Notes under the pieces: generated by a model
What the model was told of the DNA's origin: nothing
What the model saw: only the letters and a program-made list of their open reading frames with translations
Databases searched by the model: none
Position numbers and translations under genes: made by a program
Shown: in pieces, positions 3,094 to 58,024 of the stretch
Position numbering within the stretch: position 1 is the first letter of the stretch
Layout of the letters: every line of letters starts with the position of its first letter
Origin: Candidatus Levyibacteriota bacterium
GTDB lineage: Bacteria; Patescibacteriota; Microgenomatia; Levybacterales; UBA12049
DNA: 64,000 nt
NCBI GenBank assembly: GCA_016188975.1
Contig: JACPGQ010000008.1
Location: 17,812 to 81,811 of the forward strand
Reading direction: 5' to 3'

Positions 3094-3123
3094 AAATCCC
3101 CCGCAAATAGCGGGGGATTTCAT
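3094..3123 (+). terminator. Intrinsic terminator hairpin (AAAATCCCCCGC-aaat-AGCGGGGGATTTCATTT)
   Basis: Perfect 9-bp GC stem followed by a T-rich tract, directly after the small zinc-ribbon ORF. Confidence 0.45.
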
Positions 3124-3124: not shown

Positions 3125-3229
3125 TGTCATTGCGAGCCCTGAAAGGGCGAAGCAATCTCTTATAATAACTTGCTTCAATTGTATAAGATTGCTTCGTCGG
3201 TCGCCTTAGGCGACCTCCTCGCAATGACA
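3125..3229. mobile_element. MITE-like element, copy A. Terminal inverted repeats are TGTCATTGCGAG and CTCGCAATGACA.
   Basis: Perfect 12-bp terminal inverted repeats enclose an internal palindrome (GCGAAGCAATCT / AGATTGCTTCG). The same architecture recurs at 30306-30397, 57680-57803 and 57917-58024. Confidence 0.6.
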
Positions 3230-3886
3230 CGAGAAGTTCTATATAATACAAACGTGACTAAGGAAGAAAAAGTCAAAGAAATTATTAAACGGCTCCGCAA
3301 GGTATACCCCCACCCAAAAACTGCGCTCAATTTCTCAACCCCCTTAGATCTTCTCGTCGCGACAATCATGTCAGCACAAACCACTGATAAATTAGTCAAT
3401 ACGCTCACACCAGCATTATTTGCAAAATATAAAACTGCCAAAGATTACGCTGATGCTCCCGTGGAAGACATCACAAAACTGATTAGCAAAGTGAACTTTG
3501 CTAATAATAAAGCAAAGAATATTAAAGCAGCAGCACAAATTATCGTTGAGAAGCACGAAGGAAAAGTGCCTGATAACATGGAGGAGCTCGATGCGTTGCC
3601 TGGAGTCGCAAGAAAGACTGCCAATGTTGTCCTTGGCAATGCGTATCACAAAGCAGAGGGAATCGTCGTTGACACGCACGTCATGCGTTTATCCCAAAAG
3701 CTTGGGCTAACTGATAAAAAAGATCCGGAGAAAATCGAGCAGGATCTGATGCAAATAGTTCCAAAAGAAGATTGGATCGACTTCGCCCACATGCTTATCC
3801 TCTTCGGCCGCGAATACTGCCCTGCACGTCCTCACAAATGCGACGATTGCCCCCTCAGCGACCTCTGCCCCGATCAAAAAGTTTAG
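3224..3886 (+). CDS. nth: Endonuclease III (HhH-GPD DNA glycosylase with a C-terminal 4Fe-4S Cys cluster)
   Basis: HhH-GPD motifs (LPGVARKTANVVL) and C-x6-C-x2-C-x5-C at the C-terminus. I prefer the start at MTREVLYN (3224) over the longest-ORF start at 3170, which reads through the MITE. Confidence 0.85.
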   Translation: MTREVLYNTNVTKEEKVKEIIKRLRKVYPHPKTALNFSTPLDLLVATIMSAQTTDKLVNTLTPALFAKYKTAKDYADAPVEDITKLISKVNFANNKAKNIKAAAQIIVEKHEGKVPDNMEELDALPGVARKTANVVLGNAYHKAEGIVVDTHVMRLSQKLGLTDKKDPEKIEQDLMQIVPKEDWIDFAHMLILFGREYCPARPHKCDDCPLSDLCPDQKV

Positions 3887-4379: not shown

Positions 4380-5006
4380 TTACATCAACTCATCCAGTAG
4401 AGGACTAATATCAATATTTTCTAGTGATTGTTTCACAAGCGGCTTTTGCGCAATTTGCGGCGTGCCGTCTTCCCAGGTCGGGCGATCTTCTTTGAAGAAA
4501 ATTCCAGTTGCTACTTTTTCTTTCTCTCCTTCTTTGACTGGTCTCCGGAGTGGCCACTCTTCTGCTCTCTCAAACGCCTGCATCTTATTGGTCATATCAT
4601 GGCCTTGCTCCTGAAGTTTGTAGACTCTCTCATAAAACCAAGCGAATGTGTTGTGGTGATTGAACGTCACACATGGCTGCATGGTGTCTATGATTGAGAA
4701 ACCTTTGTGTTTGATCGCCTCAACGAGTAGCTCCGTCTCCTGTTTGTTATCCCCAGCATACCCCCGAGCGACGAATGTTGCTCCAGCTGAAAGTGCTAGC
4801 TGCATCGCATTGACCGGTGCTTCAACGACCGGCACCGGAGTTGCTTTATTTTTCTCACCAATGTTAGTTGTGGGTGAGAATTGTCCGGTTGTTAATCCAT
4901 ATACCTGATTGTCATGAATAAGAAGTGTCAAATTCACATTTCTCCTGGCTGCATGTAGCCAGTGATTGCCTCCCTCTGCAAATTGATCGCCGTCTCCCCC
5001 AATCAC
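4380..5006 (-). CDS. korB: 2-oxoacid:ferredoxin oxidoreductase beta subunit, C-terminal TPP-binding part. A frameshift separates it from the N-terminal part.
   Basis: GDGD...GGNHWLHAARRNVNLTLLIHDNQVYGLTTGQFSPTT is the canonical TPP-binding region of KorB/PorB. The ORF starts at a GTG embedded in a GTGA overlap with the upstream ORF. Confidence 0.7.
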   Translation of the reverse strand: MIGGDGDQFAEGGNHWLHAARRNVNLTLLIHDNQVYGLTTGQFSPTTNIGEKNKATPVPVVEAPVNAMQLALSAGATFVARGYAGDNKQETELLVEAIKHKGFSIIDTMQPCVTFNHHNTFAWFYERVYKLQEQGHDMTNKMQAFERAEEWPLRRPVKEGEKEKVATGIFFKEDRPTWEDGTPQIAQKPLVKQSLENIDISPLLDELM

Positions 5007-6274
5007 GATAACAGTCCAATCCCCGAGACGAGAACGACCTCCCAGGGCTTCAAATCCAGCTGAACAATAGCGTTCTTCAAAGAAACCCAGATTCCGAAGT
5101 CTCCACAGTTATGGAGGATTGCGTTTTCCGTGACGTATGCGTTTTCTGTATCGACCTCAAGATTGTGTACTGGACCCTTATATCGTTGTTTTTCAATCTT
5201 TCTGATTGGTAAGAATGCAAAGTTTTGGGTAAGTAAGTGCCTTTGCGGTACAAATTCTTGCTCATTATTTACGACCAAACCTAAAATTTCTTTTAACTTA
5301 ATGCAATCTCTAGGGCCATACACCCATATGGAATAGGCCGTCTTGTGCATTCCATGAGCTCCCTGAACAGATACAGTTGGTAGAATTGCCTGTCGTAACA
5401 GTAGCATTTTTACCTGCTCTGTAAGCTTCTTCGAAATAGTCCTCAAGCAAGCACTATGCCTTTTTCTGCTTTTTCCTACCCAGCCGTCACCACGCCACAT
5501 ACCCTTAATAAGTTCTTTCTGCTTTTCTTTGGGCAAAAACATTACAAAATCTGGAATCTTTTTATTTGCAGCCCCTTTTCCAAACCACCCCTCAAACATT
5601 TCTGAGAGATATGATGAATTAAATGAAAGGTCAATCGTCTTTCTCCCTTTTCGGTATCGTTTTATTGAGAAGAGACCAAAAAGCTTCTGCATAATTGCTA
5701 CGACATCCTCTGCATACATTTCTTCTCGGGAATGAAAGGTAAAGTTGATAGATCTTCTATGGACGTACCCCTCCGCTATATAATAGCCTGCCAGCCGGAG
5801 AAATTCCGCTTCCAATGGAACACTTGAGGGTAATCCCTTACTTTTTGTATCTTTCTTCCTTTTTATGAAGGAAATATCTATATGCCCTATATCTTTCTCA
5901 GTTTTCAAAATTGGATATACTAGACGATCGCCTTTTTTAAGTTCTCTTGCCTCGACCCACTGTGATTGGTATTCAAGATTTTTACGTCTTAAATGTTCAT
6001 GTTTTATCGTCAATACAGGATGTTCAGGTGTTAGCGTAGTTTCTCCAAAATATCTTGAAACAAGCCGATACATAATGCCATCATGTATGTGAGATAAAGC
6101 TTCAGTAACTTCATGAGGCATTCCATCGCTACCAATAACTCTATCTCCCGTTTTGAGAGTAGATATCAATGCCGTAGAGGGATTAGTTTGAATATAAGTC
6201 TCTGGTATAGTACATCCTGGGCACCAATTCGGCTTGTCGTAGTCAATTTGTAAATCTTGTAGTGTCGTTGCCAT
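5003..6274 (-). CDS. korB: 2-oxoacid:ferredoxin oxidoreductase beta subunit N-terminal part, carrying a 369-aa LAGLIDADG intein
   Basis: The extein MATTLQDLQIDYDKPNWCPG is followed by an intein (CTIPETY...ENAILHN), then the extein CGDFGIWVSLKNAIVQLDLKPWEVVLVSGIG. Confidence 0.75.
   Translation of the reverse strand: MATTLQDLQIDYDKPNWCPGCTIPETYIQTNPSTALISTLKTGDRVIGSDGMPHEVTEALSHIHDGIMYRLVSRYFGETTLTPEHPVLTIKHEHLRRKNLEYQSQWVEARELKKGDRLVYPILKTEKDIGHIDISFIKRKKDTKSKGLPSSVPLEAEFLRLAGYYIAEGYVHRRSINFTFHSREEMYAEDVVAIMQKLFGLFSIKRYRKGRKTIDLSFNSSYLSEMFEGWFGKGAANKKIPDFVMFLPKEKQKELIKGMWRGDGWVGKSRKRHSACLRTISKKLTEQVKMLLLRQAILPTVSVQGAHGMHKTAYSIWVYGPRDCIKLKEILGLVVNNEQEFVPQRHLLTQNFAFLPIRKIEKQRYKGPVHNLEVDTENAYVTENAILHNCGDFGIWVSLKNAIVQLDLKPWEVVLVSGIGLLS
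5108..6214 (-). other. Intein with a LAGLIDADG homing-endonuclease domain, inserted between WCPG and CGDF of KorB
   Basis: Block A starts with Cys (CTIPETYI). Block B is TPEHPVLT. The two dodecapeptide motifs are LAGYYIAEGYV and MWRGDGWVG. Blocks F/G are VHNLEVDTENAYVTENAILHN, followed by the +1 residue Cys. Confidence 0.8.
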
Positions 6275-6280: not shown

Positions 6281-6398
6281 TTTTCCTTGTACCCCTCTCC
6301 TTTTTAGGGGAGGGAATGTCCCGATTAAATCGGGACTAGGGTGAGGTCAACAATAACCTCAGACCGAGCCGATCCTCACTTTCGTGAGGATGACATCA
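6281..6398 (-). repeat. GC-rich multi-hairpin intercistronic element (CCCTCTCC..GGAGAGGG and GTCCCGATT.AATCGGGAC). A second copy is at 8745-8810.
   Basis: About 85% identity to the copy at 8745-8810 over roughly 55 nt. Both lie between cistrons of the same minus-strand operon. Confidence 0.55.
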
Positions 6399-8147
6399 TT
6401 AACCTAACAAAGACCTTACCTTTTCAATTATTTCTTCAGGATAAAATGGCCTCCCATCATATTTTCTTAAGCGATTTTCAAATGTATATCCTGTTTTCTC
6501 TCTGATAAGCCCTTCAAACTGTCCTGTCTTGTTATTTTCAATAACAAGTGTTTTCTTTGCCTTCCCTATCTCCAGCATAAAAGACTCAGCAAGAAACGGC
6601 TCCAGGTACGAAACCTGCAAAAAATTCACTGAGGTATTTTCTTTTTTTAACTGCCGTATTGCATCCAGAATAGCAAATTTTGTTGAGCCGAATGCTACGA
6701 TTGTCAAATTCGCATCAGAATCTCCCAGCAATTTCGGTGCCGAAAACTCGCCTGCAGCAATTGCGACATCGAGTTTTTTAAAACGCTTATCCATCATCTT
6801 GATTCTCATCTCAGATTCTTCATTGTAAAGACCCTTCTCGTCATGCTCATCAGAACCGGAAAGCCCGATTCCTCCTTGTTGTCCAGGCAAACTTCGAGGA
6901 GATATGCCGTCGTCGACAAGTGCATAACGTTTGTAATCTGCTTCTTGAGCCGCTTGCTGATCTGTAAGCAGTTTTCCTCTTTCAATTTTGAATTTTTCAT
7001 TTTGAACTTTGAATTCATCAATCGAAACTGTCGCATGTGATTCATTAATATGCTTATCAACAAGCACAATCACTGGAAGCTGATACTTGTCTGCCAGATT
7101 CAGCGCTTTCATCGTGTCCTCAAATGCTTCGAGCATATCTCCAGGAGCAACAACGATGCGGGGAAAGTCCCCTTGCGCTGCGTGCAGCATAAAACGGAGA
7201 TCTTCTTGCGATGTCCACGTCGGCATTCCCGTCGAAGGTCCCGGCCGCATACCCATGATGATGACAATTGGCGTTTCTGTCTGGGCTGCTAAACCAACAC
7301 CTTCTACCATCAATGAAAATCCTCCTCCCGATGTCGCTACCATGGACCGAGCTCCGGCAAATGACGCCCCAAGTGCCATGTTAATGCCTGCAATCTCATC
7401 CTCTGGTTCTTTAACGACGATATTGTACTTGAGGGCATGAGCAACCAGCGTCGTCATAATGGTATTGATCGGTGTCATCGGGTACATCGCTGCAAACTTA
7501 AGCCCTGCGCGGATTGCACCAAATGCGATTGCCTCTGCACCCCCGATAAGAAGCCTGGTTTGAGAACCAATTGGAATATCCGCGAGAAGTCCCTGTCCGA
7601 AATTCTCAACGACATAATCATATCCCGCTTTTGACGTAGTATTGTTCAATGCAACAACGTCATCCCCTTTTTTGCCAAACGTATCCTCCATAATTTTCTG
7701 GAGAACATCAAACTGTTTGTGGAAAAGCGCCAAAGATGCACCGACTGATACTGTATTAATCATCAGCCGATCAGCACCTACTTTTTTGGTAAGTTCCAGA
7801 AGTGGTACTGGAAACAGTCGAACGGAGACAGGAAACTGCTCAACAGTAAGTTTCAAAGCACTCGGGTCAAAAATGATTGCTGCGCCTTCGGAAAGCTCGT
7901 CTGTATGAAGCTTGACGGTATCAGGGTTCAGTGCAACCAGAATATCGACCGTTTTCTTCTGTGATGTAATTGCTTCATCTGATGCGCGAACGTAATACGC
8001 GTTGTGTCCTCCGCGGATGAGGGACGGGTATTCAACGTAGTCAAAAACGTGCAGGCCAAGACGCGTAAAAATCTTTGACATCATAAAGCCTGTGGTCATG
8101 ATGCCGTACCCTGCCTCACCGCCAATAAGCCACTGCAAGTCAATCAT
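6399..8147 (-). CDS. korA: 2-oxoacid:ferredoxin oxidoreductase alpha subunit with a fused N-terminal gamma domain
   Basis: 582 aa. The N-terminus is gamma-like (GGEAGYGIMTTG) and the alpha domain includes AMYPMTPINTIM and ATSGGGFSLMVEG. Confidence 0.85.
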   Translation of the reverse strand: MIDLQWLIGGEAGYGIMTTGFMMSKIFTRLGLHVFDYVEYPSLIRGGHNAYYVRASDEAITSQKKTVDILVALNPDTVKLHTDELSEGAAIIFDPSALKLTVEQFPVSVRLFPVPLLELTKKVGADRLMINTVSVGASLALFHKQFDVLQKIMEDTFGKKGDDVVALNNTTSKAGYDYVVENFGQGLLADIPIGSQTRLLIGGAEAIAFGAIRAGLKFAAMYPMTPINTIMTTLVAHALKYNIVVKEPEDEIAGINMALGASFAGARSMVATSGGGFSLMVEGVGLAAQTETPIVIIMGMRPGPSTGMPTWTSQEDLRFMLHAAQGDFPRIVVAPGDMLEAFEDTMKALNLADKYQLPVIVLVDKHINESHATVSIDEFKVQNEKFKIERGKLLTDQQAAQEADYKRYALVDDGISPRSLPGQQGGIGLSGSDEHDEKGLYNEESEMRIKMMDKRFKKLDVAIAAGEFSAPKLLGDSDANLTIVAFGSTKFAILDAIRQLKKENTSVNFLQVSYLEPFLAESFMLEIGKAKKTLVIENNKTGQFEGLIREKTGYTFENRLRKYDGRPFYPEEIIEKVRSLLG

Positions 8148-11123: not shown

Positions 11124-11144
11124 TCAATAAACGTGTCTGCTGTA

Positions 11145-11765
11145 TTATAAGGTACTATATGATACATATCCGCTACGCGATAATCTTTTCCTCATGATTT
11201 TTTGCTCAGCGTTTGATAAGAAAACCATCATTGTCTCAAAAAAACCAGAGACAATAAGCTCTATTGCTTGTTTTTCTGAAAGTCCTCTGCTTTGCAGATA
11301 AAATAGTTGCTCCTCATCAGGTTTCCCCACCGTTGATGCATGACCAGCCTTTAACTCATTCTCATCAATCTCAAGGGACGGCACACTTTTTCCCTTAGCA
11401 TCGTCAAAGAGCAGTACCTTTGAGGTAAAATACCCATCTGATCCCTTTGCTCCTTTCTGAATCGTGACTAATCCATCATTAGAAAAAGCAGATTTATCCC
11501 TAAAAACGCCACGGAGTATAGTAAGGCTTTTTGTTCTTGGAGCTTTATGAGTAATCTTTGTGTTGAATCCCAAAGTATTATTACCAGTTCCTAAAAACAG
11601 TCCTACAACGGTAACGCTTGCGCCTTCTCCCACCAATTCAACATCAACAATTACCTCGTTCTCTTTATCGTCAACCCAAATAAACGGGAGCATTCGTTTT
11701 TCATTTTTTTTGACTATAACTGATACGTGCTTCATCCATTTTCCAGACAAGGAGTATCCTTGCAA
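11145..11765 (-). CDS. sufD: Short SufD-like Fe-S assembly protein (C-terminal beta-helix core only)
   Basis: GHASTVGKPDEEQLFYLQSRGLSEKQAIELIVSGF is the SufB/SufD C-terminal signature. It is translationally coupled to sufB. Confidence 0.6.
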   Translation of the reverse strand: MQGYSLSGKWMKHVSVIVKKNEKRMLPFIWVDDKENEVIVDVELVGEGASVTVVGLFLGTGNNTLGFNTKITHKAPRTKSLTILRGVFRDKSAFSNDGLVTIQKGAKGSDGYFTSKVLLFDDAKGKSVPSLEIDENELKAGHASTVGKPDEEQLFYLQSRGLSEKQAIELIVSGFFETMMVFLSNAEQKIMRKRLSRSGYVSYSTL

Positions 11766-30305: not shown

Positions 30306-30397
30306 TGTCATCGCGAACGAATGAAATGAGTATGGCGATCTCACATAAATAAATCCATTTTAAGAGATTGCTTAGTCGCAAGCTCCTCGCAATGACA
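30306..30397. mobile_element. MITE-like element, copy B, with slightly degenerate terminal inverted repeats
   Basis: TGTCATCGCGAA ... CTCGCAATGACA. The internal segment GGCGATCTCA is inverted relative to copy D. Confidence 0.5.
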
Positions 30398-37126: not shown

Positions 37127-37847
37127 CTACGAGAGGTATGGGGAAATCTCCGTTGTTATCTTTCCGTTTGTTAGGAGAAAATCAGAGGAAAAGACGTTCC
37201 ATGAGTCACCAGTCAGACTTTGGATTGTTGCACCGGCTTTTTCTGCAATCAGAAGAGCAGCGCCAATAGCTACCGCGGCTTTCAATTGCACGAACGTTCG
37301 GCAAGACTTTTTCAAGGATCCTGAGTGTCTGCATTCTTTTTTGAATATCCCATGACCAATCGCAACACAGGAGTGCTTGCTTGAGTGTCTCAGTTGACGA
37401 AACATGAATCGGAGTATAGTTGAGATAGGCTTGGCTCTCGTCTTGTTGAGCCCAATACAATTTCTTCTCAAGGGGAAGGTATACAACTCCTACTTTAGGT
37501 TTTCCTAAACTGACAAGCCCAACTGAAATTGCAAAATGCTTGCTTCCTCGCGAAAAATTTGTTGTCCCATCAATCGGGTCAATAACCCACAGGTTTTCTT
37601 TCTCAATAAAAGTCGTATATTCAGATGGTGCGGTCTCCTCAGTCAAAAACTCAGTTGTAGGGAATTTTCGGAAAAGTTCCTCCCGAAGAAATGCGTCGAT
37701 GGCATCATCTGCCTCTGTTGCGAAATCAACCCCTCCTTTACTGTGTGTTTTGAATCCTTGTTTGAGAAAGCTATAAATACGCTCACCCGCAGCGGTAACG
37801 ACAGCGACAACTTGCTCTCTTATCGAAGTGAGTTCTCCATCCATCAC
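37127..37847 (-). pseudogene. Inositol monophosphatase-family (SuhB/CysQ-like) gene split by a +1 frameshift
   Basis: Frame 1 carries DPIDGTTNF and ends just after ...RAIESRGS. The WD-AAG / EAGG region (AIGAALLIAEKAGATIQSLTGD) continues in the +1 frame (ORF 37127..37486). The ~23-aa AALDL.YVAAGR segment normally between them is absent. Confidence 0.5.
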
Positions 37848-39724
37848 GCAAGTAACTTTTCAACCGTTTTTACAATATTCTCTGCATCAATGCCTGCGTC
37901 CTTTAAGAGCAATTCCGGTTTTCCAGACCGGGAAAACTTTTTGACGGCAAGCTTCTCTACTCTTGCATCACTCTGAGAGACGGCAGAAAGAACAAAATCC
38001 CCTAACCCTCCATGCTCATAATGGTCTTCAACGGTAACGATAATTTTTTGCTTAGTCTCATCGAGACATGAAAGGAGCGTAGGTTTATCGATAGGTTTTA
38101 TGCTGTAACAATCAACGATACGGACATGTATTCTTTTTTTCTTTAGCTCCTCATACGCTTTCAACGCTTCGTGAACAGTGATACCTGCTGCGACAATCGT
38201 TAATATGTCATCCTGAGCGAAGCGAAGGATCTTGGACCCACCAATGGTAAATGTAGCGTCATTTTTATAGAGAACCGGAGTTTTGGGGCGGAGGGTTCGA
38301 AGGTATGAGATACCTTTATGCACTGCAAGAAGCGGGAGAAGTTTTGCTGTAGACACTGCGTCTGATGGATGGAGAACAACTGCCTCAGGAATCGTCCCAA
38401 ACATCGCGATATCCTCAAGTCCCATTTGCGATGAACCATCCTCGCCTATCGAAACGCCCGAATGAGACCCGACAAAAGTGATATTTGCATGACCGATCGC
38501 TCCCATTCTGATTTGATCAAACGCCCGAGTTAGAAACGCTGCAAATGTTGAGACGAATGGCTTTTTCCCGATTCGAGACATGCCAACCGCAACACCAACC
38601 ATATTTTGCTCAGCAATAAAGCACTCGACGAACCGATCAGGAATTGCTTTCATAAAGTCTAAGCTATACGTTGAATTCTTTACTTCTGCATCAAGCGCAT
38701 AGATACGGGAATCTTCTTTGGCAATGTCTGCCAAGATTTTGCCATACACCTCACGCGTCGCTACTTCGTCACCAATGGCATAGGAACTGTCATTCTGAAC
38801 TTGTTCGCCAAAGGCGAACCTACTCGGTTTCAGCATCTTCTTTGGATCCCGAATCAAGTTCGGGATGACAACGCTCTGAGGCTCCTTTAATTGAAATCGT
38901 AATGATTCATCTACCTCTCCAAGCTCCTTGAGCGCTTTTTCAAGATCATCTTTTTTCAGAGGTTTCCCGTGCCATCCATTCGTGTCTTCTAGAAAACTCA
39001 CTCCTTTTCCTTTGAGCGTTTTCGCAACAACAACATATGGCTTTCCTGTTGTATTCTGCGTTGCATCTAAAAGCGCTTTGTCTATTTGCACTACGTCGTG
39101 CCCATCAATTGCGATAACCTCTGCTCCGAATGCTCGGAATCTTCCCACATACTCATCAATGTGATGCTCAAACATTGTCGGCTGACTCTGGCCGAGACGA
39201 TTAATATCTGAAAGAATGATGAGGTTATCAAGTTTATAATATGATGCAAAATTCAACGCTTCCCACACCTGTCCTTCTGCTAGTTCTCCATCACCAGTCA
39301 AAACATATGTTTTGTACGGAAGTTTCTCGTTTTTAGCAACATACGCTAACCCTGCACCAATTGATACTCCCTGCCCTAAAGAACCAGTCGCTGCATCGCT
39401 ATAGGCAAAATTTGGTGTTGGGTGTCCTTCAAGAGGGCTGTTGAATTGTCGAAGCGTGAGAAGATCCTCAACCGGAAACGCACCGCTGAGAGCAAAAAGG
39501 GTATAGAGAAGCGGCGCAGCATGACCCTTTGAGAGAATGAATCGGTCATTTCCAGGGAAGAGTGGGTTTTTGAGGTCATAGCGGAAGTATTTGTCAAAAA
39601 GGACTGTTGCTAGATCAGCAGCTGACATACAGGTTGTCGGATGACCAGAACCAGCAGCAGTTGTTGACTTGAGGGACCAGGCGCGAACTAACGTTGCTTT
39701 TTGAGCAAGGTGATTGGTTTGCAT
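37844..39724 (-). CDS. tkt: Transketolase
   Basis: TPP motif GDGELAEGQVWEA, N-terminal GHPTTCMSAADL, and the pyrimidine-binding and C-terminal domains are intact. Confidence 0.85.
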   Translation of the reverse strand: MQTNHLAQKATLVRAWSLKSTTAAGSGHPTTCMSAADLATVLFDKYFRYDLKNPLFPGNDRFILSKGHAAPLLYTLFALSGAFPVEDLLTLRQFNSPLEGHPTPNFAYSDAATGSLGQGVSIGAGLAYVAKNEKLPYKTYVLTGDGELAEGQVWEALNFASYYKLDNLIILSDINRLGQSQPTMFEHHIDEYVGRFRAFGAEVIAIDGHDVVQIDKALLDATQNTTGKPYVVVAKTLKGKGVSFLEDTNGWHGKPLKKDDLEKALKELGEVDESLRFQLKEPQSVVIPNLIRDPKKMLKPSRFAFGEQVQNDSSYAIGDEVATREVYGKILADIAKEDSRIYALDAEVKNSTYSLDFMKAIPDRFVECFIAEQNMVGVAVGMSRIGKKPFVSTFAAFLTRAFDQIRMGAIGHANITFVGSHSGVSIGEDGSSQMGLEDIAMFGTIPEAVVLHPSDAVSTAKLLPLLAVHKGISYLRTLRPKTPVLYKNDATFTIGGSKILRFAQDDILTIVAAGITVHEALKAYEELKKKRIHVRIVDCYSIKPIDKPTLLSCLDETKQKIIVTVEDHYEHGGLGDFVLSAVSQSDARVEKLAVKKFSRSGKPELLLKDAGIDAENIVKTVEKLLA

Positions 39725-39732: not shown

Positions 39733-40746
39733 TTATACCGTATTTTGTGGACGGTGCGAAAGAAATGCCGTAATGTTTTCGATTGTAATATTGACAATGC
39801 GCTGGAGCGCCTCAGTGCTATTAAACGCATTATGGGGTGTGATAATCACATTTGGTTTGGTGAGAAGGACGTGATTAAGAAGTTGCGTTTTTAAGTTACA
39901 CTCCTTTAAAAATTCTTCAGTTAGAAGCTGTACCTCATCCCTGATATAACATTCTTCCTCAAGTACATCCAAACCGGCTGCAAAGAGAATGCCTGTATCA
40001 AGACCCTTCAAAATTGCCTCAGTATCCACGACGCCACCACGTGCTGTATTTATCAGGATGCTCCCTTTCTTACATTTCATGATATTGTTTTTGTTTATTA
40101 AGTGATGTGTCTCTTTATTGTATGGCACATGGAGTGAGACAATATCTGACTTTGCAAGAAGTGTGTCCAAATCTACATAGGTAAACCCTAATTTCTTTGC
40201 TAATGCTGCATCAGTGTGTCGGGAGAACGCGAGTACTTCCATACCGAAACACCTCGCAAGCCGTATGACGGATCTTCCTATACTACCTGTCCCAACAACG
40301 CCTAGTGTTTTTCCATAAAGCTCAAACCCCCGAAGCCCTTTGAGCCTAAAATCTCCTTTCTTAGTCCTTTCAACTGATTGAATAAGCTGCCTGCTTATAG
40401 CCAACATGAGGGCTAGTGTATGCTCGGCAACAGTATAAGAGCCATAATCAGGAACATTGCAGACGATAATATTGTTTTTCCTGCAGTAGGCAAGGTCAAT
40501 GTGGTCAAATCCTGTGGTTCTTGTCGAAACGAGTTTAAGGTTTGTAAACTGTTTGAGGAGCTCCTCGGTGAGATTTGGATAGCTTCGTGATGAGAGGATA
40601 TCGATATCACGATATTGAACAATCACCTCTGGTGAAAGCGCATGCTGTTCAAAAAGAAGCGTATATGAACCAAGCTTCTCCTCGATAAGTGGCTTTTCCC
40701 AACCTTCGATTTCGAAAAATGCTATCTTCACGAAGAGACGTGTCAT
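39733..40746 (-). CDS. D-isomer-specific 2-hydroxyacid dehydrogenase (NAD-binding)
   Basis: GKTLGVVGTGSIGRSVIRLAR Rossmann motif and catalytic R/E/H pattern. The start is probably at MTRLFVKI. Confidence 0.75.
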   Translation of the reverse strand: MTRLFVKIAFFEIEGWEKPLIEEKLGSYTLLFEQHALSPEVIVQYRDIDILSSRSYPNLTEELLKQFTNLKLVSTRTTGFDHIDLAYCRKNNIIVCNVPDYGSYTVAEHTLALMLAISRQLIQSVERTKKGDFRLKGLRGFELYGKTLGVVGTGSIGRSVIRLARCFGMEVLAFSRHTDAALAKKLGFTYVDLDTLLAKSDIVSLHVPYNKETHHLINKNNIMKCKKGSILINTARGGVVDTEAILKGLDTGILFAAGLDVLEEECYIRDEVQLLTEEFLKECNLKTQLLNHVLLTKPNVIITPHNAFNSTEALQRIVNITIENITAFLSHRPQNTV

Positions 40747-40860
40747 TTCGATCCGCCTTTGGCCCACTTCGCCAATCTATTCTCAGCGAGGCGAGAGAGA
40801 AATCTCCGATTGAGATCTCTCCTCACGCAGTTCGTCGAGATGACAACATGTACGATAATA

Positions 40861-41472
40861 TCACATCTCCAGGCTTTTCCATAAGTATCTGCACCCAAGT
40901 GTCCGGTAGGGTTTCCACTTATTAGCAATAGTTAACGCAGTTTTCTCTGATGGTTCTTTTCGCAACCTATACAGTTTTTGCATCGCTCTCTTGAGCCCCA
41001 AATCACCATATGAAAAAACATCAAGTCTCCCCATGCTAAACATCAAAAACATCTCTGCTGTCCATCTGCCGATTCCTTTAACCTTAATCAGTTCCTGAAT
41101 AATTTCTTCATCTGTCATAATTTCAAACTGCTCAAAGAGAATTGCACTCTCCATCGTCTTTTTTGCCAGATCCTTGATGTAGGAGATTTTCTGCCAAGAG
41201 ATACCAACATCTCTAATCTTCTGATCAGGAATATCAAGCGTCAGTGCGGGGTCAACTTGCTCTTTCGGAAAAAGGGCAATAAATCTTTTCCAGATAGTAT
41301 CCGCTGCTTTTATTGAGAGTTGCTGAGAAACGACTGATTCGACAAGCTCAATGAAATAATTCCCTCCCTTGCGAGGGTCAATTGGCCCGACTTGTCCAAT
41401 AACCGATTTAAGGATAGGGTCTTTTTTGGCAAGGTATGTTGCAATCTCTTTTCCTGTAGGGCTTTTTTTCAT
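40861..41472 (-). CDS. HhH-GPD DNA glycosylase (AlkA / 3-methyladenine glycosylase II-like)
   Basis: The helix-hairpin-helix reads IKVKGIGRWTAEMFLMF, followed by the catalytic Asp region (FSYGDLG). Confidence 0.65.
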   Translation of the reverse strand: MKKSPTGKEIATYLAKKDPILKSVIGQVGPIDPRKGGNYFIELVESVVSQQLSIKAADTIWKRFIALFPKEQVDPALTLDIPDQKIRDVGISWQKISYIKDLAKKTMESAILFEQFEIMTDEEIIQELIKVKGIGRWTAEMFLMFSMGRLDVFSYGDLGLKRAMQKLYRLRKEPSEKTALTIANKWKPYRTLGCRYLWKSLEM

Positions 41473-44398: not shown

Positions 44399-45190
44399 GT
44401 GAAACTAACTTTTTTCGGCACTGGTTCGAGTACCCCCACGTCCCACAAACCGTTTCGATCCTATGCAGCTTTTTCAGTTACAACCGTAAGTGATTTTTTG
44501 CTGTTTGATATTGGCCCAGGGACAGTTGCAAAAATGATTCAGCATGGGATTGATGTCATAAAAAATCCAACACATCTTTTCATCTCCCATTTTCACCTTG
44601 ATCATTGCCTCGACTACATCACACTTACCAAAGCACGAGCATTAAAAAGAAAACAAACGGGCGAAGAAACATCGCTTCAGGTTTTTGGCCCTGAAGGATT
44701 AAGAGAGTTAAGTGATGACCTTTTTGCTAAAGTAAAAAAGTGGGATTACATGGCAAACGAATTAAAAGCTTTCGAAATTCTCAAACAGAAAGAAACGATG
44801 GAGGGAGTTGTCGCTAATTCTGGAAGTTGGAAAGTTACTTGTGCGCCGATTAAGCACTATAACGGCGTGTGTTATCGGCTCGATACAGATGGAAAATCTA
44901 TCGTCTATTCAGGAGATATGGGTTATGATGAAACCATTGCAGAACTTGGCAGAAATGCTGATGTTGCAATTCTTGAATGCTCATATCCAAGTAAAGCAGA
45001 AAATAAAGGACTGCATCTCTGTCCGGAAGAAATTGGAGAACTCGCGAGAATCGGAAATTTTAAGTATGTCATTTTGACACATATGTATCCGGCATGTGAG
45101 GGACGCGAAGAAGAGATGGTAGCAACGATACAAAAACGAGCAAACTGTGAAGTGACTGTTGCACAAGATTTTTTGGAGATGGAGTTGTAG
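44399..45190 (+). CDS. MBL-fold metallo-hydrolase (RNase Z/ElaC-like)
   Basis: HFHLDHC is the HxHxDH motif, with further metal-ligand His/Asp residues downstream. Confidence 0.7.
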   Translation: MKLTFFGTGSSTPTSHKPFRSYAAFSVTTVSDFLLFDIGPGTVAKMIQHGIDVIKNPTHLFISHFHLDHCLDYITLTKARALKRKQTGEETSLQVFGPEGLRELSDDLFAKVKKWDYMANELKAFEILKQKETMEGVVANSGSWKVTCAPIKHYNGVCYRLDTDGKSIVYSGDMGYDETIAELGRNADVAILECSYPSKAENKGLHLCPEEIGELARIGNFKYVILTHMYPACEGREEEMVATIQKRANCEVTVAQDFLEMEL

Positions 45191-46990: not shown

Positions 46991-48079
46991 CTAAAACGTA
47001 GCTGGGTAGCCTATCATTAACATATTATCATCAAGTTTTTTAAGAGTAAAATTTTTTAGATGCACTGCCTCTTTAATATATTTTGCTCCACTGCCTCCAA
47101 TAGCACTAACTCCTTTTTCTCCACCAACAACAATTGGCGCATAAAATGCATAAACTTTGTCAAATAACCTTTCATCAACAAAATACCCCAAGGTTTTACC
47201 TCCGCCTTCCACCAAAAGACTAATAATCCCCTTTTCTTTTAAGTAGGTTTGTAGTTTATCTAAAGATATTTCATTATCGGAAAATTTGAGAATAGTTATA
47301 TTTTTCTTTTTCAATAAGGCAAGCTTTTTATCAGAAACCCTTAAGTTAGTCACTATTAAAACATTACTATCTCGTAACACTTGACTATTCGGAGGTAATC
47401 TTAAGTTAGGATCAAGAATTATTCTAAGTGGATCCTTTTTTCCTCTAATTCTTACTCCTAAATGAGGATCGTCCTTAAGAACAGTATTAATTCCTACTAA
47501 AACTGCTTGATATTGACCTCTTAAGCCTCTTGCAAATTCTCTAGCCTTTTCATTAGTAATCCATTTTGAGTCGCCTGTTTTGGTCGCTATTTTTCCATCC
47601 AAGCTTGAGGCGAATTTAATTGCAATAAAAGGCCTGTTTTTTTCATGAAATGTAAAAAAAGCTTCATTTAATATTCTTGCCTGATCTTCCAAAATCCCAA
47701 CAGATACATCAATACCTGCTTTTTTTAATTTAGCTACCCCTTTTCCGCAAACTTTTGGATTAGGATCTAAAGTAGAACAAACGACACGAGATATTTTTGC
47801 CTTAATTATTTCATCTACACAAGGTGGGGTTCTTCCAAAATGACTACAAGGTTCCAAGTTAATATATAAGGTGGTTCCCTGGATACTTCCTTTGACAGAT
47901 CCGAACGCTTCAATCTCTGCATGAGGAAGTCCCACCTTTTTGTGGTATCCTTTCCCTATTATCTTGCCGTTTCTAACAATCACCGCTCCTACCATAGGAT
48001 TTGGATTTGTCCATCCTATTCCTTTTTTGGCAAGTTTGAGCGTTTCTTTCAGGAAAAAATGATCCTGAGTCTGATTCAT
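46991..48079 (-). CDS. ribD: Bifunctional riboflavin biosynthesis deaminase/reductase RibD
   Basis: CMP/dCMP-type deaminase zinc motif HAEIEAF...PCSHFGRTPPC, plus a C-terminal reductase domain. Confidence 0.85.
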   Translation of the reverse strand: MNQTQDHFFLKETLKLAKKGIGWTNPNPMVGAVIVRNGKIIGKGYHKKVGLPHAEIEAFGSVKGSIQGTTLYINLEPCSHFGRTPPCVDEIIKAKISRVVCSTLDPNPKVCGKGVAKLKKAGIDVSVGILEDQARILNEAFFTFHEKNRPFIAIKFASSLDGKIATKTGDSKWITNEKAREFARGLRGQYQAVLVGINTVLKDDPHLGVRIRGKKDPLRIILDPNLRLPPNSQVLRDSNVLIVTNLRVSDKKLALLKKKNITILKFSDNEISLDKLQTYLKEKGIISLLVEGGGKTLGYFVDERLFDKVYAFYAPIVVGGEKGVSAIGGSGAKYIKEAVHLKNFTLKKLDDNMLMIGYPATF

Positions 48080-48085
48080 TTTGAT

Positions 48086-49312
48086 TTAAACAAATTTTAG
48101 GCGGTGAGATAACTTTTGCTTTTTAGTAGAAAGGTATCTCTTATTAATTTTGTTTGGTCTTATCTCCAGAGGGATAGTTTTTATAATCTCTATACCAAAG
48201 CTAGTAAGCTGTTTCTCTTTATCTGGATTATTGGTTAACAGATTTATCTTCGTAATCCCTAAATCGTTTAAAATATCTACTGCAATTTTATATTGGCGTG
48301 CATCAACAGGAAAGCCTAGTGATTCATTGGCCTTAACTGTATCATGGCCTTTATCCTGCAGGGCATACGCTCTGATTTTATTAGTCAAACCAATCCCTCT
48401 TCCTTCTTGACTAAGATACAGAATAACGCCGCTACCTTTTTTATTTATCAATTTCGTACTTTGGCGCAATTGCTCTCCACAATCACACCGTAAAGAGGAA
48501 AGTGTATCTCCGGTTAAACACTGGGAATGAATTCTTAAGAGCATAGTATCTTTGAGTTCACCTTTTACTAAAGCTATATGCTCTCTATTATCAATTACTG
48601 ATTTATAAACTATTAACTGAAAATTCCCATAGTTAGTCGGAAGTATAGAAGTAGCAGTTTTAATTATTTCCTTACCCTCTTCAAGTTTGCCTAAAGGATT
48701 CTTCTTCATGTATTTAATCAAATCCTTAATTGAGATTATTTTTATCTTTAGTTTTTGAGATAGTGTAATAAGTTCTGGCAATTTAGCCATATTTCCATCA
48801 CTGCCAACAATTTCACACAAAACCCCTGCTGGTGTAAAATATGCCAGCCTCGCAAGATCAACTGCAGCCTCAGTATGACCATCTCTTTCTAAAACACCAC
48901 CATTTTTTGCCACCAACCCAAAGACGTGGCCTGGACGAGAAAGATCAGAAGGAGTAGATTTAGAATCTGCTAATATATTAATGGTTTTAAACCGATCAAA
49001 GGCAGATACTCCAGTCGTAATACCAATTTTGGCATTAACTGAGACAGTAAAATTAACTTTAGTTTTTTCACTGTTTTCAAAAGGAGCAACCATTAATGGA
49101 AGCTGTAAATTGACTGCTTGCTGTCTAGTGATCGCTGCACAAAGTAAACCCCCTCCAAATTTAATCATTGTTAGAATATATTCAGGAGTTGTTTTATCTA
49201 CAGGGACATAAAAGTCTCCTTCGTTCTCCCTACGAGGGCTATCAACGATGATAAGCATCTTGCCTTGTTTTATATCTTCTATTGCTTCCGTAATGGTGGC
49301 AAAATAATTCAT
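48086..49312 (-). CDS. ribBA: Bifunctional DHBP synthase / GTP cyclohydrolase II RibBA
   Basis: RRENEGDFY (RibB) and the CDCGEQL zinc motif (RibA). Confidence 0.85.
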   Translation of the reverse strand: MNYFATITEAIEDIKQGKMLIIVDSPRRENEGDFYVPVDKTTPEYILTMIKFGGGLLCAAITRQQAVNLQLPLMVAPFENSEKTKVNFTVSVNAKIGITTGVSAFDRFKTINILADSKSTPSDLSRPGHVFGLVAKNGGVLERDGHTEAAVDLARLAYFTPAGVLCEIVGSDGNMAKLPELITLSQKLKIKIISIKDLIKYMKKNPLGKLEEGKEIIKTATSILPTNYGNFQLIVYKSVIDNREHIALVKGELKDTMLLRIHSQCLTGDTLSSLRCDCGEQLRQSTKLINKKGSGVILYLSQEGRGIGLTNKIRAYALQDKGHDTVKANESLGFPVDARQYKIAVDILNDLGITKINLLTNNPDKEKQLTSFGIEIIKTIPLEIRPNKINKRYLSTKKQKLSHRLKFV

Positions 49313-49752
49313 ATCTTTGATAAAATTTTAATCATCGCTAAGGCTGTTAAGGCTGCCTCAACTCCTTTATTTTCTTCATCTCTTGTAGCTCGCTCTATTG
49401 CATCTTTAATGTCATATACAGCCAAAACCTCAAAGATTACTGGAACTTCATATTGCCAAGAAGCATCCATACAGCCTCTGATACACTCATCGGCAATTTG
49501 TTCAAAATGATACGTTTTTCCCTTAAGGATAGCTCCAAAAGTAATAATTGCATCATAAATACCTTTCTTAGCCAACTTTTTTACCACAAGCGGAATTTCC
49601 AAAGAACCTGGCACTCTAAAAATCTCTATCTGACTTATCTTTACGTCTCTACTTTTAAGAGTCTGAATACAATGTTTTTCTAAGTTATCAGCTACTTCTC
49701 TTCTAAAAGAGCTGCTAACTATGGCAATTCTAATATCCTTAGTTTGTTTCAT
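49309..49752 (-). CDS. ribH: 6,7-dimethyl-8-ribityllumazine synthase
   Basis: 147 aa lumazine synthase fold (RIAIVSSSFRREV, GAILKGKTYHFEQ). Confidence 0.85.
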   Translation of the reverse strand: MKQTKDIRIAIVSSSFRREVADNLEKHCIQTLKSRDVKISQIEIFRVPGSLEIPLVVKKLAKKGIYDAIITFGAILKGKTYHFEQIADECIRGCMDASWQYEVPVIFEVLAVYDIKDAIERATRDEENKGVEAALTALAMIKILSKI

Positions 49753-50333: not shown

Positions 50334-50334
50334 T

Positions 50335-50530: not shown

Positions 50531-50644
50531 CCGAAGGAATGTGCGTTAATTGTACCATAAAAATTCCAGGATTTCTTAAGATTTAATTTTATGCATGCGG
50601 TAGCAAAAATGGATGTTTGATTGATAAATCAATCTTAAAGGTTA

Positions 50645-57679: not shown

Positions 57680-57803
57680 TGTCATTGCGAGGAGCCATGC
57701 AGGGCTGCGCTGAAACGACGAAGCAATCTAATACAAAACTTTCGTCTTGTAGAGAATTGTTTCTAAGAGATTGCTCTCCGCCAACTGGCGAATCACAATG
57801 ACA
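57680..57803. mobile_element. MITE-like element, copy C, starting 8 nt upstream of the serS start codon
   Basis: Terminal inverted repeats TGTCATTGCGAG ... (T)CACAATGACA, with internal GACGAAGCAATCT / AGAGATTGCTC inverted repeats. Confidence 0.55.
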
Positions 57804-57916: not shown

Positions 57917-58024
57917 TGTCATTGCGAGCCCCGATTGAATCGGGGCGAAGCCACGTACCGTACGGTACATGGCGAAGCAATCTCATGAGATCGCCACAGC
58001 TACATCAATAGCTTCGCGATGACA
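57917..58024. mobile_element. MITE-like element, copy D
   Basis: Terminal inverted repeats TGTCATTGCGAG ... CTTCGCGATGACA. Internal hairpins are CCCGATTGAATCGGG and CGTACCGTACGGTACATG. Confidence 0.55.

What the first reader, a model, noticed from the sequence alone, without database searches (positions are those of the whole stretch)
3125..3229. Family of 92-124 bp MITE-like elements with 12-bp terminal inverted repeats, four copies in this window, hijacked as gene 5' ends
Four intergenic copies share perfect or near-perfect terminal inverted repeats (TGTCATTGCGAG ... CTCGCAATGACA):
- 3125-3229;
- 30306-30397;
- 57680-57803;
- 57917-58024.

They share an internal second inverted-repeat pair (GCGAAGCAATCT / AGATTGCTTCG) and variable GC-rich hairpins. 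Some internal segments occur in either orientation between copies.

The right-hand repeat contains ...GCAATGACA. In copy A this ATG is the most plausible start codon of nth (MTREV...). In copy C the element ends 8 nt before the serS ATG. So the element appears to supply or remodel 5' UTRs and start codons.

Four copies in 64 kb of a very small, AT-rich genome is a high density. No transposase is present in the window, consistent with a non-autonomous element.
Basis: seen in the sequence. Interest (0 to 1): 0.65.

Follow-up and report, generated by a model that had tools for sequence, protein, structure and literature searches.

The report
Head-to-head pairs of REP-type hairpins
The four "MITE-like" elements are head-to-head pairs of a small hairpin repeat, the CGTC/TGTC-tagged REP class described in 2013; the same repeat turns up in many bacterial phyla and in tailed phages, so the kind is ordinary, although how this class spreads is still unknown.

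Summary
The four elements are real and far above chance. They are not MITEs. Each is a head-to-head (HH) dimer of a 25-68 nt hairpin monomer. A monomer has an unpaired TGTC tag, a stem that opens with A-T and T-A, a variable apical hairpin and a 3-nt tail (CTC).

This matches the CGTC-tagged REP superfamily of Di Nocera et al. 2013 (PMC3733652). That family has a CGTC/TGTC tag, an AT-first stem, a 3-nt tail and mostly HH dimers. It includes intragenic copies and has no linked transposase. One of their host strains, N. aromaticivorans, carries the same core sequence.

The window holds more copies than reported: a fifth dimer (40741-40845), a solo copy (6369-6395) and two copies inside transketolase. 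The stem covaries across at least six stem types. There are no target-site duplications and no transposase in the window.

The same core occurs in more than 120 phage contigs and more than 120 MAG contigs labelled with about 20 phyla.

The claim of "hijacked start codons" is weak. For nth, a TATAAT box and homologue lengths favour the downstream GTG.

Verdict: a new member of a known kind. The mechanism of spread is unresolved.

The parts
3125..3229 (.). HH dimer A. Monomers 3125-3159 (+) and 3185-3229 (-), both with an ATTGC/GCAAT stem (homodimer) and a 25-nt AT-rich spacer. It lies between a terminator-like hairpin (3094-3120) and nth.
   Evidence: It folds as a four-way cruciform in DNA parameters: -32.5 kcal/mol, z = -8.3.
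30306..30397 (.). HH dimer B (heterodimer). Monomer 30306-30342 (+) has an ATCGC/GCGAT stem; monomer 30364-30397 (-) has an ATTGC/GCAAT stem. It lies between tsaE and sua5/tsaC, 9 nt upstream of the sua5 ATG.
   Evidence: z = -1.3. Identical in three independent assemblies, L001-L003. A dimer sits at the same junction in relative L251 and shares the apical 8-mer CATTTCAT.
57680..57803 (.). HH dimer C. Monomer 57680-57730 (+); degenerate monomer 57767-57803 (-) with the tag box TGTCATTGTGAT. It ends 7 nt from the serS ATG (57672, minus strand).
   Evidence: z = -2.05.
57917..58024 (.). HH dimer D (heterodimer). Monomer 57917-57984 (+) has an ATTGC stem and two apical hairpins; monomer 57987-58024 (-) has an ATCGC/GCGAT stem.
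   Evidence: z = -5.0. Independent Logan contigs L004 and L005 end exactly inside its tag at 57922, as expected at a repeat.
40741..40845 (.). Monomer 40741-40806 (+) has an ATTTC/GAAAT stem; monomer 40812-40845 (-) has an ATCTC/GAGAT stem. It lies between an HhH-GPD gene (40861-41472) and a 2-hydroxyacid dehydrogenase. The tag ATG (40746) is in frame with the latter.
   Evidence: (z = -2.25).
6369..6395 (-). Solo monomer TGTC-ATCCTCAC-GAAA-GTGAGGAT-CGG: an 8-bp stem with a 4-nt loop, the textbook CGTC-REP geometry. It is intergenic.
   Evidence: z = -3.8.
38843..38870 (-). Intragenic monomer in transketolase (37844-39724, minus strand), read in frame as VIPNLIRD. It lies within a 12-residue insertion relative to human transketolase, in the linker between the N-terminal and Pyr domains.
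   Evidence: fold z = -4.0.
38206..38233 (+). Intragenic monomer on the strand antisense to transketolase, TGTC-ATCCT-GA-GCGAAGC-GA-AGGAT-CTT, read as ILRFAQDD. It is collinear with homologues (no length change), so the history of the insertion is unresolved.

Best explanation
What it is. Each element is a head-to-head dimer of a REP-type hairpin repeat belonging to the CGTC/TGTC-tagged REP superfamily of Di Nocera, De Gregorio and Rocco (2013).

The unit is a monomer with this layout:
- an unpaired tag, (T/C)GTC;
- a stem that begins A-T, T-A and continues with three covarying pairs;
- an internal tandem G.A (GA/GAA) or three further Watson-Crick pairs;
- an apical hairpin of free sequence and length, often a C-GNA-G mini-hairpin;
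- a 3-nt unpaired tail (CTC here, CCA in Proteobacteria).

Shown here: the anatomy, the covariation, the dimer organisation, intragenic copies, the absence of target-site duplications and of any linked transposase, presence/absence polymorphism, and the very wide distribution including tailed phages.

Inferred: the monomer is a non-autonomous, selfish DNA hairpin. It is recognised as single-stranded or extruded DNA through its tag and stem foot by an enzyme acting in trans, and it tends to land beside an existing monomer, which produces HH dimers. The enzyme is unknown. An HUH/Y1-type nuclease, as for GTAG REPs and RAYTs, is the best analogy.

Once resident, copies persist for a long time under constraint on tag, stem and tail. 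They sit in the short intergenic gaps of this compact genome as structural spacers. They do not generally supply start codons.
For: Anatomy and conservation
- Conservation stops sharply at T(-1) and TC(+1,+2) of TGTCATTGCGAG...CGAAGCAATCTC across 532 distinct copies.

Stem covariation
- Among GTCAT-NNN...N'N'N'-ATC sites, the complementary types seen are TGC/GCA 550, TCT/AGA 14, CGC/GCG 6, TCC/GGA 6, CCT/AGG 5, CTC/GAG 4, CCC/GGG 3 and GGC/GCC 3.
- In a set chosen only by tag, tail and length, 36 cells change on both sides against 13.6 +/- 4.1 in shuffles (0 of 500 reach it). The covariation score is 0.353 against 0.164, and all slid registers score lower.
- The window alone has six stem types, all complementary.

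Match to the published family
- Tag CGTC, changed to TGTC in many repeats.
- Complementary A and T in the first and second stem positions.
- A 3-bp tail.
- HH dimers predominant, with heterodimers common.
- Spacers in most dimers 20-100 bp; the five window spacers are shorter, 2-36 nt (my counts from the monomer coordinates).
- Intragenic units present.
- No transposase association.

Same core in isolates
- N. aromaticivorans pNL2 (a host named in that paper) carries CGTCATTGCGAGGAGGCGAAGCCGACCAAGCAATCCAG...CTGGATTGCTTCGCGACGCTCGCAATGACG.
- The core is also in Methylosinus OB3b, Calothrix PCC 6303 and Legionella lytica.

Organisation
- In the window and in unselected relatives, all adjacent pairs are HH: 4 and 8 respectively, with 0 TT and 0 HT.

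No linked enzyme
- There is no transposase, HUH protein or integrase in the window.
- No neighbouring protein family recurs across the 120 genome loci.

Mobility
- Filled and empty sites occur among related phage contigs.
- They also occur among relatives at the tsaE-sua5 junction.

DNA level rather than RNA level
- Solo copies show no orientation bias against flanking co-directional genes: 33 same to 35 opposite in phages, 13 to 12 in genomes.
- Many apical loops in the insert list are of the C-GNA-G / GCGNAGC mini-hairpin type (loop types were not tallied), known to be exceptionally stable in DNA (PMC13037366).

Persistence
- The gene-proximal monomer at tsaE-sua5 in the window and in L251 (Sua5 70% identical) shares its position, its orientation and the apical 8-mer CATTTCAT.
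- The stems differ by a compensatory pair, ATCGC/GCGAT against ATTGC/GCAAT.
Against: - The published CGTC families have 8-9 bp stems and 4-5 nt loops. The monomers of the five window dimers instead have a 5-bp basal stem, mostly followed by a GA/GAA internal loop (less regular in the variant monomers), and long variable apical hairpins. Only the solo and intragenic copies fit the published geometry.
- I could not see the paper's Figure 2 consensus sequences. Identity with a particular CGTC family (1 to 4) rests on the text description and on the N. aromaticivorans sequence.
- No mobilising enzyme is known for this class, so the mechanism is an analogy.
- Insert boundaries in filled/empty comparisons are not uniform. 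Extra flanking bases occur, one case has a 25-nt flanking direct repeat, and some have flanking CCCCC/GGGGG arms. This fits recombination or template switching as well as transposition.
- The diversity of stems and apical parts within 64 kb argues against recent bursts from a master copy.
- Near-identical boxes across phyla are unlike RAYT-linked REPINs, which are described as mostly vertically inherited within lineages (abstract listed).
- Copy number in the whole source genome could not be measured.
Confidence: 0.8

Rival explanations
1. Classical MITE: a deletion derivative of a DDE-type insertion sequence. Its 12-bp terminal inverted repeats would be bound by a transposase encoded elsewhere in the genome, and it would move as the whole 92-124 bp unit.
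For: - Inverted 12-mers lie at both ends of each element.
- The size is right for a MITE.
- The elements are intergenic.
- There is no transposase in the window.
Against: - No target-site duplications at any of the five dimers.
- Half-elements occur alone, in the window (6369-6395) and very often in phages.
- The two ends of B, D and E differ from each other, while each half stays self-complementary.
- The internal sequence is unrelated between copies.
- The same boxes are found in about 20 phyla.
- No recurrent neighbouring gene.
Confidence: 0.04
2. A host-selected RNA element. Transcribed hairpins would act as intercistronic terminators, attenuators, mRNA stabilisers or 5'-UTR/translation elements. 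This is the post-transcriptional role that Di Nocera et al. favour for many REPs.
For: - The copies are intergenic, close to gene ends and starts.
- They form stable hairpins.
- They are depleted from long ORFs: 36% of copies against 79% of bases.
- In phage L008/L079 a monomer sits between a Shine-Dalgarno site and the start codon.
- Apparent long-term retention with a compensatory change.
- This could coexist with a selfish origin.
Against: - No orientation bias relative to transcription, although the G.A pairs exist on one strand only.
- No T-tract follows the hairpins, and no terminator was called at B, C or D. Dimer A sits just after a separate, proper terminator.
- In-frame intragenic copies exist.
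- No Rfam family matches.
- Most relatives lack any element at the same junction.
Confidence: 0.12
3. A DNA site for a protein. Candidates are nucleoid or topoisomerase binding, as with E. coli REP/BIME and gyrase or IHF, or attachment targets for phage or IS integration, as described for Neisseria dRS3 (the last point from my own knowledge, not tested here).
For: - The tag and tail are conserved even though they are unpaired.
- The repeat is shared between phages and bacteria.
- Di Nocera et al. equate CGTC-1 in Neisseria with dRS3.
Against: - No integrase or prophage boundary lies next to any window copy.
- The distribution among relatives is patchy, which argues against an essential chromosomal role.
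- No binding protein is known.
Confidence: 0.04

Closest known systems
CGTC-tagged REPs (families CGTC-1 to -4), Di Nocera, De Gregorio and Rocco, BMC Genomics 2013 (PMC3733652)
   Same: - Unpaired CGTC/TGTC tag.
- Stem starting with complementary A and T.
- 3-nt tail.
- HH dimers predominant, with heterodimers.
- Intragenic copies.
- No linked transposase.
- The same ATTGCGAG...GCAAT core in N. aromaticivorans, one of their host strains.
   Different: - Here the tag is always TGTC and the tail is CTC rather than CCA.
- Monomers inside dimers have a 5-bp basal stem plus a GA/GAA loop plus long variable apical hairpins, instead of 8-9 bp stems with 4-5 nt loops.
- The host is a small-genome uncultured lineage and tailed phages, neither covered by that survey (5 phyla).
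GTAG REPs / REPINs mobilised by RAYT (Y1/HUH) transposases
   Same: - Short hairpin with an unpaired 5' tetranucleotide tag.
- Inverted dimers that can fold as one long hairpin.
- No target-site duplication.
- Non-autonomous.
   Different: - The tag is different.
- No RAYT or any HUH gene lies nearby or in the window.
- Many stem types at low copy, rather than one dominant sequence cluster per genome.
- Near-identical boxes across phyla, whereas REPIN-RAYT systems are described as mostly vertically inherited.
Neisseria dRS3 / NIME repeats and Rickettsia RPE-4 and RPE-6 (assigned to CGTC-1 and CGTC-4 by Di Nocera et al.)
   Same: - Tag-stem-tail design of about 25 nt. The relative L251 even carries GTCATTCCCGCGAAAGCGGGAATC, which from memory resembles the dRS3 core ATTCCC-N8-GGGAAT.
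- In-frame insertion into genes, as in Rickettsia.
   Different: - Different stem sequences in the window.
- No large clusters.
- No evidence here of use as a phage integration site.
Bacterial MITEs (for example Correia, Nezha, ERIC-type)
   Same: Small, intergenic, non-autonomous elements with inverted ends that can fold as a hairpin.
   Different: - MITEs move as a whole unit with target-site duplications and derive from an IS with matching ends.
- Here the unit is the half-element, there are no duplications, and no parent IS is known.
IS200/IS605 ends and their miniature derivatives (PATEs)
   Same: Subterminal DNA hairpins recognised on one strand by an HUH enzyme; no target duplication.
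   Different: - Those have two different hairpins on the same strand, flanking a cargo.
- Here there is a single hairpin, or two in opposite orientation, with no cargo.

Membership tests
CGTC-tagged REP superfamily (Di Nocera et al. 2013) | [quoted passage not shown] | tested here: met
   All 13 window monomers start TGTC. T at position -1 carries 1.1 bits over 532 copies. Proteobacterial isolates have CGTC.
CGTC-tagged REP superfamily (Di Nocera et al. 2013) | Stem whose first and second positions are complementary A and T | tested here: met
   AT...AT is invariant in every copy. The next three pairs covary: six types in the window, more than eight overall.
CGTC-tagged REP superfamily (Di Nocera et al. 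2013) | Short 3-nt unpaired tail (consensus CCA) | tested here: met
   A tail is always present. In the window it is CTC 8, CTT 2, and CCA, CTA, CGG and CGC 1 each. Proteobacterial isolates have CCA 5 of 7. The sequence differs from the published consensus.
CGTC-tagged REP superfamily (Di Nocera et al. 2013) | Stem 8-9 bp and loop 4-5 nt | tested here: inconclusive
   Met by the solo copy at 6371-6394 (8 bp + GAAA) and by 38845-38869 (8 bp + 5 nt). Met by 38207-38231 only if the tandem G.A is counted as stem. Not met by the ten monomers inside dimers, which have a 5-bp stem, an internal loop and 11-53 nt apical parts. The paper notes longer or variable loops in some Bradyrhizobium, Kosmotoga and Mesotoga families.
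CGTC-tagged REP superfamily (Di Nocera et al. 2013) | HH dimers (tags outside) predominant; TT rare; HT negligible | tested here: met
   Window: 5 HH, 0 TT, 0 HT. Unselected relatives: 8 HH, 0 TT, 0 HT. Phage contigs differ: HH 22, TT 15, HT 23.
CGTC-tagged REP superfamily (Di Nocera et al. 2013) | No association with transposase genes | tested here: met
   None among about 55 window ORFs. No recurrent neighbouring family in 120 genome loci. Only 64 kb of the source genome was available.
CGTC-tagged REP superfamily (Di Nocera et al. 2013) | Sequence identity to one of the four published family consensus sequences (their Figure 2) | not testable with these tools
   Figures are not held and the supplements contain no matching strings. 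Indirect support: the same core occurs in N. aromaticivorans, which they list as a CGTC-2 host.
MITE | Target-site duplication flanking the element | tested here: not met
   The flanks of A-E share no direct repeat. For example, A has TTCATT|...|CGAGAA and B has TTATTG|...|GAGGAA.
MITE | Copies related over their whole length, and ends matching a parent IS | tested here: not met
   Only the boxes are shared between copies. No IS is present in the window. The full genome was not available.
REPIN-RAYT system | A RAYT (Y1 transposase) gene flanked by the same repeats | tested here: inconclusive
   No Y1_Tnp hit among window ORFs. No recurrent neighbouring protein family among ORFs in 240 loci; this all-against-all comparison would not reveal a transposase present at only a few loci. 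The rest of the genome is unseen.
Rfam structured RNA families | Match to a curated covariance model | tested here: not met
   In the window only the FMN riboswitch passes the gathering score. There is no relevant hit at E <= 1 in three element-rich loci.

The most novel reading that the evidence does not exclude
TGTC/CGTC-tagged hairpins may be one horizontally circulating element family, shared by tailed phages and at least 15-20 bacterial phyla. These include lineages with genomes of about 0.8 Mb where no transposase was seen in the parts examined. On this reading they are mobilised by a phage-encoded enzyme or by a universal host single-strand-DNA enzyme (not a dedicated RAYT), and phages carry them between phyla. 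That would explain a transposase-less REP class that has been unexplained since 2013.
Probability: 0.2. Interest if true: 0.65.

Novelty: new member of a known kind. Interest (0 to 1): 0.3.

Why it matters
For annotating this window:
- It replaces a "new MITE family" with a known repeat class.
- It corrects two doubtful start codons.
- It flags REP-encoded peptides inside transketolase.

More broadly:
- The data extend CGTC-type REPs from the 5 phyla of the 2013 survey to MAGs labelled with about 20 phyla, to small-genome uncultured bacteria and to genuine tailed phages.
- They show stem covariation and apparent long-term retention.
- The class still has no known mobilising enzyme. A compact genome rich in these repeats, together with repeat-laden phages, would be a good place to look for one.

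Tried and rejected
- Literature search by sequence strings and by the spurious peptides the repeat encodes: only primer coincidences.
- Rfam at gathering and permissive thresholds: nothing relevant.
- Hammerhead and K-turn readings of the GA...GAA core: rejected by inspection. The hammerhead CUGANGA box is missing, and there is no 3-nt bulge before the G.A pairs.
- Classical GTAG REPs: the REP lists of Nunvar 2010 and the RepRanger 2025 paper contain no matching sequence.
- Search for a linked gene by all-against-all clustering of 7,044 ORFs from 240 loci: only phage structural genes (portal, terminase, tape measure) and generic bacterial families recur.
- Orientation bias against transcription: none.
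- Uniform insertion boundaries or target duplications in filled/empty pairs: boundaries are heterogeneous.
- The outward ATGACA of the tag as a -35 box: the scan pairs it with -10-like hexamers only inside or antisense to coding sequence, so this was not pursued.
- Exact-protein lookup of the window's serS: failed, because the window copy carries an 80-nt deletion.
- A test of G.T against A.C mismatch asymmetry to separate RNA from DNA selection: too few informative cases.
- The source organism could not be named.

Full report
**1. The observation**

The 12-mer TGTCATTGCGAG occurs exactly five times in 64 kb. With up to 2 mismatches it occurs 14 times against 5.5 +/- 2.6 in shuffles, and 0 of 100 shuffles reach 14.

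Only copy A has perfect ends and both inner boxes. In B, C and D one end is a variant: TGTCATCGCGAA in B and D, TGTCATTGTGAT in C.

The window is 36-44% G+C, so it is not very AT-rich. Rfam finds only an FMN riboswitch, and there are no tRNAs.

**2. The repeating unit is the half-element**

Each element consists of two inverted monomers of the form TGTCATTGCGAG-[variable hairpin]-CGAAGCAATCTC. B and D each combine this type with a second type, TGTCATCGCGAA...GGCGATCTC.

In the second type, ATTGC/GCAAT has become ATCGC/GCGAT. That is a compensatory change inside the monomer, and it spoils complementarity between the two ends of the element. This pointed to a hairpin monomer, not a TIR-bounded transposon.

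Three results support that reading.
- Over 532 distinct copies from public contigs, conservation stops sharply one base before GTCAT and two bases after ATC.
- Among GTCAT-NNN...N'N'N'-ATC sites the triplets are complementary in many versions: TGC 550, TCT 14, CGC 6, TCC 6, CCT 5, CTC 4, CCC 3, GGC 3.
- In a set of 25-nt candidates chosen only by tag, tail and length, the 8-pair hairpin has 36 cells changed on both sides against 13.6 +/- 4.1 in shuffles (0 of 500 reach it). Every slid register scores lower.

Stem positions 6-7 are either Watson-Crick or a tandem G.A/A.G. Many apical loops in the insert list are of the C-GNA-G / GCGNAGC type, though I did not tally loop types. That type is known as an exceptionally stable DNA mini-hairpin (PMC13037366).

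**3. More copies in the window**

A tag-plus-complementary-stem search finds 11 sites against 1.6 expected, with a maximum of 5 in 100 simulations. Full enumeration adds the following.
- A fifth head-to-head dimer at 40741-40845, with stems ATTTC/GAAAT and ATCTC/GAGAT.
- A solo monomer at 6369-6395, with an 8-bp stem and a GAAA loop.
- Two monomers inside transketolase.

One transketolase copy (38843-38870) is read in frame as VIPNLIRD. It lies within a 12-residue insertion relative to human transketolase, in an inter-domain linker. The other (38206-38233, antisense, read as ILRFAQDD) is collinear with homologues, so its history is unresolved.

Folded as DNA, A forms a four-way cruciform (z = -8.3) and D is also strong (z = -5.0). 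B, C and E, two heterodimers and a dimer with one degenerate monomer, are weak as whole-element folds, with z between -1.3 and -2.3. This again suggests that the monomer hairpin is what is conserved.

**4. Distribution**

Many of these contigs are related to one another, and representatives of the recurrent gene clusters encode portal, large terminase and tape-measure proteins, so they are real tailed phages.

All are MAGs. Their labels include:
- Chloroflexota, Omnitrophota, Alpha- and Gammaproteobacteria, and Desulfobacterota;
- Planctomycetota, Bacteroidota, Gemmatimonadota and Acidobacteriota;
- Methylomirabilota and Calditrichota;
- Patescibacteria, Parcubacteria and Peregrinibacteria;
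- Firmicutes and others.

Cultured isolates carry it too: Methylosinus trichosporium OB3b, Methylocystis, Novosphingobium, Calothrix, Trichormus and Legionella lytica. It is therefore not an assembly artefact and not specific to one lineage.

**5. What it is**

A text search led to Di Nocera, De Gregorio and Rocco 2013 (PMC3733652). They define a CGTC-tagged REP superfamily as follows:
[quoted passage not shown] - a 3-bp tail (consensus CCA);
- 8-9 bp stems and 4-5 nt loops, with longer loops in some families;
- predominantly HH dimers (tags outside) with 20-100 bp spacers in most dimers, often heterodimers;
- intragenic units present;
- no association with transposase genes.

The family includes Neisseria dRS3 and Rickettsia RPE-4 and RPE-6.

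N. aromaticivorans, one of their CGTC-2 hosts, has CGTCATTGCGAG...CAAGCAATCCAG in an HH dimer. That is the same core as in the window.

In the window and in unselected relatives, all adjacent pairs are HH.

The window elements meet every defining feature except stem and loop geometry for the monomers inside dimers. These have a 5-bp stem, a GA/GAA loop and a long apical hairpin. Their spacers are also shorter than the 20-100 bp typical of most published dimers: 2-36 nt, by my counts from the monomer coordinates. The tag is always TGTC, and the tail is CTC rather than CCA.

**6. Not a MITE**

- None of the five dimers has a target-site duplication.
- The copies share nothing outside the boxes.
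- Half-elements occur alone.
- No transposase, HUH protein or integrase is found among about 55 window ORFs.
- Among 7,044 ORFs from 240 loci, no recurrent neighbouring protein family other than phage structural and generic bacterial families appears. This comparison would not reveal a transposase present at only a few loci.

**7. Mobility and persistence**

Related phage contigs show filled and empty sites. The insert boundaries are heterogeneous.
- Some inserts carry extra bases.
- Some carry flanking CCCCC/GGGGG arms.
- One has a 25-nt direct repeat.
- One is fused to the N-terminus of a gene.

Among 39 loci from relatives (Sua5 53-72% identical), most tsaE-sua5 junctions are compact and empty. 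These relatives carry many other stem types in HH dimers elsewhere in the same loci.

L251 has an HH dimer at the same junction as window copy B. Its gene-proximal monomer shares the apical 8-mer CATTTCAT with the window copy but has ATTGC/GCAAT where the window has ATCGC/GCGAT. This suggests an old insertion kept under structural constraint. That is an inference.

Solo copies show no orientation bias relative to flanking genes: 33 to 35 in phages and 13 to 12 in genomes. This argues against a strand-specific RNA role. It fits a DNA-level element better, because the G.A pairs exist on only one strand.

**8. The claim about gene 5' ends**

*nth.* The ATG at 3224 lies in the tag.
- Homologue alignment puts residue 16 of that model at residue 5 of E. 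coli Nth, and residue 14 at residue 7 of the Bacillus enzyme.
- A TATAAT box at 3242-3247 sits between that ATG and an in-frame GTG at 3254.
- A TATAAT-like box a few bases before the start codon recurs at several other genes in this genome, and Shine-Dalgarno motifs are rare, at 12 of 54 genes.
- The GTG is therefore the more likely start.

*2-hydroxyacid dehydrogenase.* The tag ATG at 40746 is in frame (MTRLFVKIAFFE). A GTG five codons later gives MKIAFFE..., a shorter N-terminus that from memory looks more typical of this family; I ran no homologue comparison, so the start stays open.

*serS and sua5.* The tags end 7 and 9 nt before the ATG and are out of frame or blocked by a stop.

Di Nocera et al. 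reached the same general view about REPs at annotated N-termini. The elements abut starts mainly because the intergenic gaps are short.

**9. Mechanism**

Shown: the anatomy, the covariation, the organisation, the distribution and the polymorphism.

Inferred: spread as a single-stranded or extruded DNA hairpin, recognised through its tag and stem foot by an enzyme acting in trans. An HUH/Y1 nuclease is the nearest precedent, from GTAG REPs. HH dimers would form by insertion next to a resident monomer.

No enzyme is known for this class, and the cross-phylum identity of the boxes is unlike RAYT-linked REPINs. I therefore hold the class assignment at about 0.8 and the specific mode of spread at well under 0.5.

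**10. Verdict**

It is best filed as a new member of a known kind, a TGTC-tagged and CTC-tailed variant with long apical hairpins. Novelty is modest.

The phage-borne, pan-phylum distribution and the lack of any mobilising gene are the parts worth following.

Noticed in passing
window 56708-56712 (serS, minus strand; ORFs 56490-56816 and 56647-57672): The window's serS lacks 80 nt that are present in independent assemblies L004 and L005. Those encode an intact 421-aa SerS, and the missing part includes ...[31 protein letters not shown]... The deletion splits the gene into two overlapping ORFs. It is either a strain-level pseudogene or an assembly error.
   Followed up: partly
window 5003-6274 (-): A 423-aa ORF made almost entirely of an intein splicing domain plus a LAGLIDADG homing-endonuclease domain, next to a pyruvate:ferredoxin oxidoreductase gene (6399-8147). 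It is the only classical selfish genetic element gene found in the window.
   Followed up: no
window-wide; for example 37844-39724, 44399-45190, 53183-56002, 6399-8147: Several genes have a TATAAT-like box a few bases (about 6-12) upstream of the start codon, and only 12 of 54 have any Shine-Dalgarno-like motif. This suggests leaderless or very short-leader mRNAs are common in this organism.
   Followed up: partly
window 50386-50542 (-): An FMN riboswitch (79.5 bits) lies upstream of a complete riboflavin operon: ribE-like, ribH, ribBA and ribD at 46991-50369.
   Followed up: no
window 11136-11176 and 59349-59389: A 41-nt direct repeat, 83% identical and itself palindromic (TATGTATCATA...TATGATACATA). 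One copy is in the suf operon region and one is near rpsT. It may be a shared operator. It is unrelated to the REP family.
   Followed up: no
window 57812-57850, between dimers C and D: GTGATTATACTGCGAATTCGCAGGGGAAGCAATTTTC looks like a decayed monomer: a hairpin followed by a GAAGCAAT-like box. If so, the serS upstream region is a small REP cluster, not two separate dimers.
   Followed up: no
window 3224-3886 and 40861-41472: The window has two HhH-GPD base-excision repair genes, and both adjoin a REP dimer: A lies upstream of nth, and E lies 15 nt downstream of the second gene. Di Nocera et al. remark on REPs in or near repair genes. With two cases this may be coincidence.
   Followed up: no
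L074, L108, L115, L088 (phage contigs; region aligned): The intergenic gap upstream of a conserved phage gene that starts ATGAGTATA... is hypervariable between related phages. It is empty in some, holds a REP monomer in others, and holds tandem GTTGAAC(G/A)T-type short repeats in others.
   Followed up: no
L254, L255, L256 (tsaE-sua5 junction of relatives): A different hairpin-like repeat, ACCCGCTTCGCC...GGCGAGCAAT, occupies the same junction that holds dimer B in the window. This junction seems to collect structured inserts of several kinds.
   Followed up: no
Some taxon labels look doubtful for their gene content and context (Klebsiella pneumoniae, Enterobacteriaceae, Halobacteria archaeon). 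The phylum tally should be read as approximate.
   Followed up: no
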